From the IMG/VR virus record IMGVR_UViG_3300037140_000076, positions 1-64,000 of that record: a stretch of DNA of 64,000 nt, one strand, 5' to 3'. Under the pieces are notes generated by a model. It was not told the origin of the DNA and ran no database searches. It saw nothing but the letters and a program-made list of their open reading frames with translations. Positions 59,083 through 61,720 of the stretch are shown in pieces. Position 1 is the first letter of the stretch. Every line of letters starts with the position of its first letter. A program made the position numbers and the translations under genes. The stretch comes from a virus.

Positions 59083-59313
59083 TTAAAAAGATAGGACCTC
59101 AGACTCAATACGAGCCTCATGACGGACCTTTGGAGGGCGGGAAGGGATTATATCCACTTTGGAGTAGATAGGCTCGTCCTTGGCAGATTTATAGCCAAAG
59201 AAGAACACCATACAGGTAAAGATACCCAGGCCAAGGAGGATGAAGGGGACAAGGGGGAAGGATAGAACTATCCAAACCCCGGTAATTGCGTTGTTGAGTT
59301 TTTTATTTCTCAT
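59083..59313 (-). CDS. Small membrane protein
   Basis: Long hydrophobic N-terminal segment. Confidence 0.5.
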   Translation of the reverse strand: MRNKKLNNAITGVWIVLSFPLVPFILLGLGIFTCMVFFFGYKSAKDEPIYSKVDIIPSRPPKVRHEARIESEVLSF

Positions 59314-59737
59314 ATTGTTTTTTTAGTTTTAAAGTATATTCTTTGATTTTTGGAACCAGGTCCAAATTGTTCTCGGCCTTTGTATGCGTTTCCCAAGATA
59401 CTAATATGATGTTCCACTTCTCATATCTAAATTGTGGGTATGCTGATTTTCGTTTGCCCAGGACATGATGGAAGTATAACGTTAACGGCTCCCCGTATAT
59501 CGGTTCTCCTGTCTCAAAGTCTATGTGTGGTCGTTCATTCCAAATCTCAGCAAATAAAAGTCTATCCTTCTGAGTTAGCTTCGCTCTCTCTCCCAAGATT
59601 ACGCTTTGGTTTTTGCTTACTTTCCGGATAGATTTAGTTCTGTTTAGAGAATACCCTGTTTTACGTTGATGATAAATACAATATCCTTTTGAAAATACAG
59701 GATTATTACATTCTTTATATTGACAGGTCTTAGGCAT
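59303..59737 (-). CDS. HNH-like/NinG-like nuclease with N-terminal Zn finger
   Basis: C...C....GYC..H; FHHVL.K...YP.FR....NI......H. Confidence 0.55.
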   Translation of the reverse strand: MPKTCQYKECNNPVFSKGYCIYHQRKTGYSLNRTKSIRKVSKNQSVILGERAKLTQKDRLLFAEIWNERPHIDFETGEPIYGEPLTLYFHHVLGKRKSAYPQFRYEKWNIILVSWETHTKAENNLDLVPKIKEYTLKLKKQYEK

Positions 59738-60290: not shown

Positions 60291-60322
60291 AAAAAAAAGG
60301 CCCAATATAGAAATACCGGGCC
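60291..60322 (-). terminator. Intrinsic terminator downstream of the tmRNA
   Basis: GGCCCGGTAT-TTCT-ATATTGGGCC followed by T8 on -. Confidence 0.8.
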
Positions 60323-60347
60323 AATACTTATTTCTAAGGTTTGTCAG

Positions 60348-60705
60348 TGGACTAGTCGGAATTCGAATCCGAGTCTTCAATACAAAAAATCTTACTTTTC
60401 TTTATAGGTTTAGGATAACGATTTAATCTTACTACCGTTCCAAAAGAATTTTCCTACCCTCCACCACTCGGTTTAGGTCCGAGAACCATGCTACACCAGC
60501 CATTTTCTGTTTCAAGGTATGACTACCCATGCATCAAGCTAATTCCAGTTCTTCACTGAAAACCGAAGCGAGTATCGCTTCTCCTTCTGCAATACGTTCA
60601 GCTTTAGACTTTACGTTTGTTTGTTGCATATTTATTAAGGATGTTATATACTGCATCCACCTAAAATAAAACCTTTCAATACTGAATCAATAGCCTTTCT
60701 AGCCC
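60348..60705 (-). ncRNA. ssrA: tmRNA (transfer-messenger RNA), 358 nt
   Basis: 5' GGGCUAG pairs with 3' CUAGUCC-A with the G3:U70 Ala determinant; T-arm UCGGA-UUCGAAU-UCCGA preceded by GAC; helix 2 UUCAGUA/UAUUGAA; internal tag ORF ending ...EELELA*; CCA not encoded. Confidence 0.9.
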
Positions 60706-60710
60706 ATAAA

Positions 60711-60902
60711 TTAAAATAGTAGAGAGTCAAAGAGGTACGGATACGTGAAGACTATATTTCCCAATCTTTATAGTTATTTCCCGTTGCAACAGTAATAACA
60801 CCTCCAGTTTGTCGGAAGCTTTTTTGATTGGTACATCTCGGACACCGTTTCGACCACGCCCATGATCAGTGGGTTTGTGCGGTTCTTCATCTACTATTTT
60901 AA
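60711..60902 (-). ncRNA. Unidentified ~190-nt structured RNA candidate
   Basis: 13-bp terminal inverted repeat closing several internal stems; no ORF; between the tRNA-like element and the tmRNA. Confidence 0.6.
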
Positions 60903-60910
60903 AAAAGTTA

Positions 60911-61052
60911 AAAAATAAGTCCCTTTCCCTTCACTATCCCAGGGTGGTTAATAAGGACTTATTTTTACGTACGCTGTTTTAGGCTACAGATACCTCATAC
61001 GTAACCATTGCCGTTAGAATATAGACCGATTTATGATACTATACAACGGTTG
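60911..61052 (-). other. Run of three adjacent stem-loops
   Basis: AAAAATAAGTCC/GGACTTATTTTT (60911-60966); TACGTA..CTGT/ACAG..TACGTA; CCGTTG.TATAG/CTATA..TAACGG. Confidence 0.5.
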
Positions 61053-61061
61053 GATTTTTCG

Positions 61062-61130
61062 AACATCCAAGAGGAATCGAACCCCTGCTTCACCCTACAC
61101 GGGTGCGTCCTCCCACTAGACCATAGATGT
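61062..61130 (-). tRNA. tRNA-like element with an aberrant 5-nt anticodon loop (GUGUA); identity undetermined
   Basis: Acceptor ACAUCUA/UGGAUGU; D-arm GUCU-AGUGGGA-GGAC; stem CACCC/GGGUG; T-arm AGGGG-UUCGAUU-CCUCU; no CCA. Confidence 0.75.
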
Positions 61131-61155: not shown

Positions 61156-61187
61156 CAAAGATAAGTAACTTTTTTGAAACTTACAAA
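61156..61187 (-). promoter_or_regulatory. Bacteroidetes sigma70-type promoter of the ncRNA cluster
   Basis: TTTG-N20-TATCTTTG, matching consensus, about 25 nt upstream of the tRNA-like element. Confidence 0.8.
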
Positions 61188-61720
61188 TATTTAAATTTAT
61201 ATCCAAATGCGTGTTTTTCAAGACCATTTAAAACATGCCAAATAGTTGATTGTCTTATTTTTAATTGTCTTGAAGCTTCCCTTTGAGAAATAAATTTTAT
61301 TTTTTTGTTTTTAGGAGATATAACTAAAATCTTAGTTGGTTTATTTCCCATGACTTTTTTCAATATATCCCTTGCATGTTGTATATTTTGTTGCCTTGTA
61401 CACCATTCAAGCTGAGAGGCCCGGTTATCAAGTTTATTTCCTTTCTTATGATTTATATCAAATCCTTTTTTATATCCTTTTACAAAATGTTTTCCAACTA
61501 ATATATGAACCTGGATTTTAGTAGATTTTCCATTTTTGGTTAAATCTAATTGTAAGTATCCTTTAGCATTTGGAGAAAGAATTCTATTTCTTCCCTTAAA
61601 TTTTTGTAAAATTCCATGTTTGGTTTTTATTATTCTATCAAGAGATTTAATATTACCATAATTACTTATTTGATAATAACCTTTGTATCCTTTTATATCT
61701 TTCCATTCTTTTTTCCTCAT
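61181..61720 (-). CDS. NUMOD4-HNH homing endonuclease
   Basis: EWKDIKGYKGYYQISN.G, VH.LV..HF, INHK.GNKLDN....LEW.T...N..HA. Confidence 0.9.
   Translation of the reverse strand: MRKKEWKDIKGYKGYYQISNYGNIKSLDRIIKTKHGILQKFKGRNRILSPNAKGYLQLDLTKNGKSTKIQVHILVGKHFVKGYKKGFDINHKKGNKLDNRASQLEWCTRQQNIQHARDILKKVMGNKPTKILVISPKNKKIKFISQREASRQLKIRQSTIWHVLNGLEKHAFGYKFKYL

What the first reader, a model, noticed from the sequence alone, without database searches (positions are those of the whole stretch)
60711..60902. Unrecognised ~190-nt multi-stem RNA with a possible pseudoknot
On -: a 13-bp closing helix; ACCG/CGGU enclosing CAC/GUG and CCCA-CUGAUCA-UGGG; GUC.GAG..GUAC/GUAC.CUC...GAC; CAAUC/GAUUG enclosing CUUCC/GGAGG and GUUAUU..CUGU/ACGG..AAUAAC; plus a cross-pairing UGAAGA/UCUUCA. 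It is more GC-rich than its flanks. The length is 6S-like but it is branched, and I cannot match it to RNase P, SRP or small ribozyme consensus sequences. It is a candidate new ncRNA class.
Basis: partly seen in the sequence, partly recalled or inferred. Interest (0 to 1): 0.75.

Follow-up and report, generated by a model that had tools for sequence, protein, structure and literature searches.

The report
Orphan folded spacer before phage tmRNA
A 192-base stretch whose two ends pair in a 13-bp stem sits directly in front of a phage's ribosome-rescue RNA gene (tmRNA); it is most likely a transcribed, non-coding leader/spacer of that RNA operon, but it exists only in two near-identical phages, so there is no evolutionary evidence that it is a new functional RNA class.

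Summary
Only the 13-bp closing stem is unusual. Without it, the 166-nt core folds no better than shuffled sequence (z -0.16), and the + strand folds as well as the - strand.

The element matches no Rfam family. It lies in an RNA-only transcription unit of a 112-kb Flavobacteriia-type phage: promoter-like box, aberrant tRNA-like element, structured spacer "A", this element, 5 nt, tmRNA, terminator.

It contains a 38-codon ORF. The ORF's codon usage is worse than that of spurious ORFs, and it has no homologue.

The only other copy, in a sister phage contig, is 100% identical. The two genomes are mosaics with many longer perfect runs, so that identity says nothing about constraint. A distant relative (L028) has the same operon but a different, non-alignable spacer, which also ends 5 nt before the tmRNA.

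I found no reverse transcriptase, Ro or SmpB gene, no MITE copies and no host homologue.

Best reading: a lineage-specific, self-closing leader or spacer of the pre-tmRNA, removed during maturation, comparable to the by-product RNAs of the T4 tRNA operon. A trans-acting role is possible but unsupported.

Other first-stage readers flagged this same stretch of this genome.

The parts
61156..61163 (-). Bacteroidota-type -7 promoter-like box TATCTTTG upstream of the RNA operon
   Evidence: Pattern match. The motif is not enriched window-wide. However, the same box sits upstream of the operon in L002 (TATATTTG) and in L028 (TATCTTTG at about position 193). Its promoter function is inferred.
61061..61130 (-). 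Aberrant tRNA-like element, called tRNA-Thr(UGU); first RNA of the operon
   Evidence: ARAGORN; Rfam tRNA at 44.6 bits. The anticodon arm reads CACCC-GUGUA-GGGUG, a 5-nt loop if fully paired. The D-arm is conserved in L028 (Smith-Waterman, 0 of 500 shuffles reached the score).
60903..61060 (-). Structured spacer 'element A': three hairpins, the last with a 13-bp stem and a U-tract
   Evidence: Fold z = -2.36. In window versus L002, five predicted pairs change on one side and stay paired, and none breaks.
60711..60902 (-). The finding: a 192-nt self-closing element
   Evidence: Single copy in the genome. Identical copy in L002 at 1800-1991.
60890..60902 (-). 5' arm of the 13-bp closing helix P1 (UUAAAAUAGUAGA)
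   Evidence: Pair probability is 0.94 in isolation and 0.89 in the full operon transcript.
60711..60723 (-). 3' arm of P1 (UCUACUAUUUUAA)
60774..60890 (-). 38-codon ORF inside the element (rejected as a gene)
   Evidence: Translation. Codon score is -0.28 per codon, against -0.13 for spurious ORFs and +0.30 for real genes. No Pfam match. No hit among 1.8 billion representatives. The AUG abuts the P1 stem.
60706..60710 (-). 5-nt linker UUUAU between P1 and the mature tmRNA 5' end (the expected RNase P site)
   Evidence: Sequence. L028 has AUUAU between its own closing helix and its tmRNA. RNase P cleavage here is inferred from general tmRNA biology.
60347..60705 (-). Phage tmRNA with a long acidic tag (...SEELELA*)
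   Evidence: ARAGORN; Rfam RF00023 at 48.9 bits against a cut-off of 47. The T-arm covaries among window, L002 and L028.
60299..60322 (-). Intrinsic terminator of the operon (10-bp GC-rich stem followed by T8)
61181..61720 (-). I-HmuI-like HNH homing endonuclease gene directly upstream of the operon
   Evidence: PHROG HNH; Pfam NUMOD4, HNH_3 and I-HmuI NUMOD-like.

Best explanation
The element is a transcribed, non-coding, self-closing leader or spacer module of a phage RNA-only operon. The operon order is: tRNA-like element, spacer A, this element, tmRNA.

Its 13-bp terminal helix pairs the two ends and loops out a 166-nt core as an autonomous domain. The domain ends 5 nt upstream of the mature tmRNA 5' end.

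During maturation, host RNase P would cut on its 3' side, at the tmRNA 5' end. An endonuclease would cut in the AU-rich linker or stem on its 5' side. This would release a roughly 190-200-nt by-product with paired, exonuclease-protected termini. The closest analogy is the spacers and 'species I/II' RNAs of the T4 tRNA operon.

Shown: position, strand, lack of coding potential, autonomous fold, and the absence of any known family.

Inferred: transcription, processing, and any stability of the released piece.

No trans function is demonstrated. The element is lineage-specific.
For: - It lies between, and on the same strand as, a tRNA-like gene and a tmRNA gene. A promoter-like box lies upstream and the only strong terminator lies downstream.
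- No base of the element pairs outside it in the 856-nt operon fold, and P1 has pair probability 0.89 there.
- The ORF is rejected.
- G+C is raised, as in the neighbouring RNAs.
- Neighbouring operon parts show RNA-level conservation: tmRNA T-arm covariation, one-sided pair-keeping changes in spacer A, and a conserved tRNA-like D-arm.
- A distant relative, L028, has a non-homologous spacer in the same place. That spacer also ends in a closing helix 5 nt (AUUAU versus UUUAU) before the tmRNA.
- The signal is a strong closing stem with an interior no better than chance. This fits a looped-out spacer better than an ornate ribozyme or riboswitch.
- T4 precedent: one primary transcript is the precursor of eight tRNAs plus the species I and II RNAs, and a homing endonuclease gene sits in that cluster (PMC2330249).
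Against: - There are no expression data.
- There is no covariation. The only other copy is identical, and that identity is explained by mosaic exchange.
- The + strand folds equally well.
- The hairpin with a U-tract just upstream (end of spacer A) could terminate some transcripts before the element.
- The 5-nt spacing shared with L028 rests on two lineages only.
- A 13-bp stem is short for a classical RNase III site, and the phage encodes no RNase III.
Confidence: 0.45

Rival explanations
1. It is a genuine trans-acting phage small RNA: a new family. It would be released from the operon and would act on host or phage machinery, for example translation quality control, tRNA-targeting defences or RNA polymerase. 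It might dimerise through the palindromic UGAUCA loop.
For: - Paired termini, about 190 nt, raised G+C and an autonomous fold.
- It is embedded among RNA genes of a phage that carries 20 tRNAs and a tmRNA.
- No known family matches.
- Catalogues of viral structured RNAs would miss a rare, invariant RNA, as their authors say themselves (PMC10690425).
Against: - The interior fold is not better than shuffles.
- No homologue was found in L028, L029, L030, Chryseobacterium phage MA9V-3, Cellulophaga phage phi38:2 or the other tmRNA phages.
- No homologue was found in INPHARED, IMG/VR, 401 Flavobacteriales genomes by blastn or 151 by covariance model.
- There are no unusual antisense matches in the phage genome.
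- There is no partner protein such as Ro or SmpB.
Confidence: 0.25
2. It is a DNA-level feature: the relic of an inserted cassette bounded by 13-bp terminal inverted repeats (MITE-like or carried by homing-endonuclease traffic), or a protein-binding or recombination site. The RNA folding would be incidental.
For: - The 13-bp inverted repeats are perfect, and the fold is equally good on both strands.
- The element is absent from the same operon in L028, whose spacer is about 150 nt shorter.
- Homing endonuclease genes sit at different places around the operon in the window and in L002.
- The mosaic identity pattern indicates frequent exchange.
Against: - It is single-copy in the phage.
- A scan for the inverted-repeat pair gave only chance hits in IMG/VR and in 185,579 species genomes.
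- There is no convincing target-site duplication: only TTT in a T-rich context.
- No transposase or reverse transcriptase is present.
Confidence: 0.12
3. It encodes a 38-residue Cys-rich peptide (MKNRTNPL...CYYCCNGK).
For: An ATG-initiated ORF with an A/T-rich upstream region, as is usual for Bacteroidota translation starts. G+C is higher than in the flanks.
Against: - Codon score is -0.28 per codon, lower than 82% of spurious nested ORFs. Only 0.3% of 38-codon windows of real genes score as low.
- No Pfam family matches.
- No hit among 1.84 billion representatives, where even the ORF itself was never called.
- The start codon abuts the 13-bp stem.
- With an identical second copy, no dN/dS test is possible.
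Confidence: 0.05

Closest known systems
Bacteriophage T4 species I and species II RNAs (stable RNAs of the T4 tRNA gene cluster)
   Same: Both are small non-tRNA RNAs encoded inside a phage RNA gene cluster and made from the same primary transcript as the tRNAs. Their function is unknown. A homing endonuclease gene (segB) sits in the T4 cluster and drives co-conversion of flanking sequence (PMC2330249). Here, HNH genes flank the operon.
   Different: There is no sequence relationship, and there is no Rfam model to test against. The present element lies 5' of a tmRNA rather than at the end of a tRNA array. Its expression and stability have not been shown.
Precursor leaders and spacers of stable-RNA operons (pre-tmRNA and pre-tRNA 5' leaders removed by RNase P; rRNA spacer stems)
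   Same: The position immediately upstream of a mature 5' end, with end-pairing that loops out the intervening sequence. The sequence is lineage-specific while the architecture is kept (compare the window with L028).
   Different: At 192 nt, with a 13-bp perfect stem, it is unusually long and elaborate for a tmRNA leader. In another phage family the tmRNA is simply abutted by tRNA-Ser.
Bacterial and phage Y RNAs (YrlA)
   Same: Roughly 100-200 nt, with the 5' and 3' ends paired in a long terminal stem and a branched interior. They occur in phages.
   Different: There is no Ro/Rsr (TROVE) gene in the phage. There is no tRNA-like T-arm module and no Rfam match even at E<=10.
Retron msr-msd ncRNA
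   Same: Inverted repeats pair the two ends of a 150-250-nt structured RNA.
   Different: There is no reverse transcriptase anywhere in the 112-kb genome. A tmRNA, not a reverse transcriptase gene, lies downstream.

Membership tests
Any Rfam 15 family (6S, RNase P, SRP, Y RNA, ribozymes, riboswitches, GOLLD/ROOL/HEARO etc.) | Covariance-model score at or above the family's gathering threshold | tested here: not met
   No hit over 60711-60902 at gathering thresholds. At E<=10 there was only a chance-level hit, MIR390 at 18.6 bits against a cut-off of 77.
Retron ncRNA | Adjacent reverse transcriptase gene | tested here: not met
   PF00078 was absent from the whole phage record, and the control genomes were positive.
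Retron ncRNA | Flanking inverted repeats (a1/a2) that pair the RNA ends | tested here: met
   A 13-bp perfect inverted repeat.
Y RNA / YrlA | Ro60/Rsr (TROVE) partner encoded nearby, and a tRNA-like module | tested here: not met
   No TROVE domain in the genome. No tRNA or Y RNA model hit inside the element.
MITE / small non-autonomous transposon | Multiple dispersed copies sharing terminal inverted repeats | tested here: not met
   Single copy in the phage. Scans for the inverted-repeat pair in IMG/VR and GTDB genomes returned only unrelated sequences.
MITE / small non-autonomous transposon | Target-site duplication | tested here: inconclusive
   Only TTT occurs on both sides, within T-rich flanks.
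Small protein gene | Coding-type codon usage and homologues | tested here: not met
tmRNA-like message module (tag template without the tRNA half, as noted in other phages by earlier agents) | Short tag frame ending in a degron-like tail, tmRNA-type pseudoknots, and a hit to a tmRNA model | tested here: not met
   No tag-like frame in any of the three frames. No tmRNA-clan hit within the element.
Stable by-product RNAs of phage tRNA operons (T4 species I/II type) | Co-transcription with tRNA/tmRNA genes and release by host RNA-processing enzymes | not testable with these tools
   Only the gene order, strand, promoter-like box and terminator are seen. No RNA data are available.

The most novel reading that the evidence does not exclude
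The element is the founding member of a new class of phage-encoded structured small RNAs. It would be produced together with a phage tmRNA and would cooperate with it or with the aberrant tRNA-like element, for example by tuning trans-translation or blunting tRNA/tmRNA-targeting host defences. It might act as a homodimer through its palindromic UGAUCA loop.
Probability: 0.15. Interest if true: 0.65.

Novelty: new member of a known kind. Interest (0 to 1): 0.3.

Why it matters
If it is only a looped-out leader, it is an ordinary, lineage-specific part of a pre-tmRNA and matters little by itself.

The locus as a whole is more instructive. It is an RNA-only operon in a Flavobacteriia-type phage, and it combines:
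- a non-canonical tRNA-like element;
- structured spacers;
- a tmRNA with an unusual acidic tag, with no phage SmpB gene;
- homing endonucleases moving around the operon.

This recalls the half-century-old puzzle of the T4 species I/II RNAs. If the released 190-nt piece proved stable and functional, it would be a new handle on how phages manipulate ribosome rescue.

Tried and rejected
**Known families**
- Rfam gave nothing at gathering thresholds or at a permissive E-value.

**Searches for homologues**
- blastn against INPHARED phages.
- An exact hairpin 15-mer in IMG/VR; only the sister contig was real.
- A scan for the terminal inverted-repeat pair in IMG/VR and GTDB genomes gave chance hits only.
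- Flanking-protein anchors yielded one sister contig and one useful distant locus, L028.
- A tmRNA-anchored pattern in IMG/VR found only an unrelated tmRNA phage family with no spacer.
- Tag-peptide back-translation scans of IMG/VR and GTDB gave nothing.
- A tRNA-like D-arm pattern gave nothing.
- The single-sequence covariance model R1 gave nothing on related loci and records or on 151 Flavobacteriales genomes.
- blastn on 401 Flavobacteriales genomes returned only A/T-rich chance matches.

**Apparent similarity to L028**
- Smith-Waterman alignments of the element and of spacer A against L028 were not better than shuffles (p = 0.13-0.40).
- The best local matches are non-colinear and fall in different structural contexts.

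**The 100% identity to L002**
- I first took it as a sign of constraint.
- I rejected this after finding 17 longer perfect runs between the two genomes.

**Other readings**
- Retron: no reverse transcriptase.
- Y RNA: no TROVE gene.
- Phage SmpB or RNase III partners: none.
- Peptide gene.
- Antisense targets in the phage genome.
- tmRNA-like tag frame.

The contigs behind 15 further homologues of the neighbouring 176-aa protein could therefore not be fetched.
- The search for homologous proteins refuses queries under 40 aa.

Full report
**What is there**

On the minus strand, 60902 to 60711 is a 192-nt stretch with no ORF of 40 aa or more.

Partition-function probabilities separate them into two groups:
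- Well supported: the 13-bp closing helix P1 (0.94), the CCCA/UGGG hairpin (0.87), CAAUC/GAUUG (0.75), and its two enclosed hairpins (0.95-1.0).
- Weakly supported or unsupported: ACCG/CGGU (0.18), GUC/GAC (0.36), GUAC/GUAC (0.34) and GAG/CUC (0.00).

The proposed UGAAGA/UCUUCA pseudoknot cannot be scored with nested-fold tools, and it has no comparative support.

**Is it more than chance?**

- The whole element folds at -48.4 kcal/mol with z = -2.54. The opposite strand does as well (z = -2.41).
- Without P1, the 166-nt core has z = -0.16, and 84 of 200 shuffles fold at least as well. The + strand core has z = -0.47.
- The entire thermodynamic signal is therefore the 13-bp inverted repeat. 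That repeat is the only long-spaced inverted repeat of 13 bp or more in the 64-kb window.
- For comparison, the bona fide tmRNA next door has z = -2.28 and spacer A has z = -2.36.
- G+C is 0.40 (core 0.44), against 0.35 for the genome.

**Context**

The window is part of a 112,374-bp IMG/VR phage record. Its nearest cultured relative is Chryseobacterium phage MA9V-3 (69% identity in a topoisomerase-like protein), followed by Cellulophaga phages. The phage is therefore of a Flavobacteriia type.

ARAGORN and Rfam place a tRNA-like gene at 61061-61130 (-) and a tmRNA at 60347-60705 (-). The genome has 19 more tRNAs elsewhere.

The element lies between these two RNA genes on their strand:
- A Bacteroidota-type -7 box, TATCTTTG, sits upstream of the tRNA-like element. 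The motif is not enriched window-wide, but it recurs at the same place in L002 and L028.
- The only strong terminator follows the tmRNA.
- P1 ends 5 nt (UUUAU) before the mature tmRNA 5' end.
- In a fold of the 856-nt operon transcript, no base of the element pairs outside it, and P1 keeps a probability of 0.89. The element is thus an autonomous domain of an RNA-only transcription unit.

**Not coding**

The element contains a 38-codon ATG ORF.
- Its codon-usage score is -0.28 per codon. Spurious nested ORFs average -0.13 and 38-codon windows of real genes average +0.30. Only 0.3% of real windows score as low.
- Pfam finds nothing.
- phmmer against 1.84 billion representatives finds nothing.

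**Not a known RNA**

No Rfam 15 family matches at gathering thresholds or at E<=10.
- Retron is excluded because there is no reverse transcriptase.
- Y RNA is unlikely because there is no TROVE/Ro gene and no tRNA-like module.
- There is no tmRNA-like tag frame.
- The phage encodes no SmpB and no RNase III.

**Relatives**

*The sister contig (L002).*
- A sister phage contig (IMGVR_UViG_3300050124_000042; L002) has the same operon.
- Its copy of the element is 100% identical. The identity extends over a 283-nt perfect run (60659-60942) that reaches into spacer A and the tmRNA.
- The tRNA-like element, the tmRNA centre and the flanking genes are only 76-87% identical.
- I first read this as constraint, but a whole-contig comparison refutes that. 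The two genomes are 91.7% identical mosaics with perfect runs of up to 2.2 kb, and the 283-nt run ranks only 18th.
- Homing endonuclease genes sit at different places around the operon in the two phages. This is the situation in which co-conversion tracts are expected (PMC2330249).
- The identity is therefore uninformative, and no covariation test is possible.

*The distant relative (L028).*
- This is a metagenome contig found through the neighbouring 176-aa protein.
- It carries a clearly homologous tmRNA: 84 bits, with the tag ...EGEAIL...EELELA.
- It also carries a homologous tRNA-like element.
- The 208 nt between them are not alignable to the element or to spacer A (p = 0.13-0.40).
- The covariance model R1, built from the element, finds nothing there.
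- The L028 spacer nevertheless also ends in a closing helix (GGGUAG/CUACCC) placed 5 nt (AUUAU) before the tmRNA.
- Another phage family simply abuts tRNA-Ser to its tmRNA.

*Other searches.*
- No copy or homologue was found in IMG/VR.
- None in INPHARED.
- None in GTDB genomes.
- None in sampled Flavobacteriales genomes.

**Interpretation**

The pattern is:
- inside an RNA operon, non-coding, and autonomous in folding;
- a strong end-pairing stem with an interior no better than chance;
- lineage-specific sequence, with a positional analogue in a distant relative.

This fits a looped-out leader or spacer module of the pre-tmRNA best (confidence 0.45). It would be removed by RNase P on the 3' side and by an endonuclease on the 5' side. 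The by-product would be comparable to the T4 species I/II RNAs, which derive from the same primary transcript as the T4 tRNAs (PMC2330249).

The alternatives are:
- A true trans-acting small RNA (0.25) cannot be excluded. Surveys of viral structured RNAs would miss a rare, invariant RNA (PMC10690425).
- A DNA-level insertion relic (0.12) is consistent with the strand symmetry and with the element's absence from L028. It lacks any second copy.
- A peptide gene (0.05) is unlikely.

**Verdict**

This is an orphan element of a known general kind: a non-coding module of a phage stable-RNA operon. It is not demonstrably a new RNA class. By itself it is of modest interest, and the surrounding operon is the more interesting object.

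Noticed in passing
window 60347-60705 (-); L028 1134-1547; L002 about 1996-2395: The phage tmRNA has a long acidic tag ending ...SEELELA* (L028...DEELELA*; L002, read by eye...SEEVLELV*) instead of the usual ...ALAA degron. The G3-U pair is kept and the T-arm covaries among the three. The phage has no SmpB gene.
   Followed up: partly
window 61061-61130 (-); L002 1572-1646; L028 about 853-925: The element called 'tRNA-Thr(UGU)' is non-canonical. Its anticodon arm reads CACCC-GUGUA-GGGUG, a 5-nt loop if fully paired. The GUGUA is conserved in L002 with a covarying stem. The L028 homologue shares the D-arm but is not called by ARAGORN. It may be a processing signal or a decoy rather than a decoding tRNA.
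   Followed up: partly
window 60903-61060 (-): Spacer 'element A' forms three hairpins (z = -2.36). Five predicted pairs change on one side between the window and L002 and all stay paired. A possible pseudoknot pairs AGGU with the (G/A)CCU hairpin loop. The last hairpin looks like a terminator but has a 30-nt structured loop.
   Followed up: partly
window 61181-61720 (-); window 59303-59737 (-); L002 2416-2985 (+): Homing-endonuclease genes surround the RNA operon at different sites in the two sister phages. In L002 a His-Me-finger-like ORF lies between the tmRNA and its terminator, so it would be co-transcribed with the RNAs, as segB is in T4.
   Followed up: partly
G000 versus G001 (L098-L100), whole contigs: The two phage genomes are mosaics: 91.7% mean identity, with blocks at 76-86% interleaved with perfect runs of up to 2.2 kb. 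This indicates recent recombination within the population.
   Followed up: yes
L028 1-850: Upstream of the L028 operon core lie a promoter-like TATCTTTG (at about 193) and a roughly 350-nt ORF-poor, GC-rich leader. These are followed by a 107-nt tRNA-model hit (569-675, perhaps with an insertion) and a small lipoprotein-like ORF (from about 690).
   Followed up: no
L040 322-815 (-); L072 9567-10060 (+): A different IMG/VR phage family carries a tmRNA (tag ...GGELALAA) directly abutted by tRNA-Ser at the end of a large tRNA array.
   Followed up: no
window 60862-60868 (-), loop of the CCCA/UGGG hairpin: The 7-nt loop contains the palindrome UGAUCA (it includes GATC). The element also holds AAGCTT, TGCA and two GTAC palindromes. 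This could allow kissing-loop dimerisation, or it could be chance.
   Followed up: no
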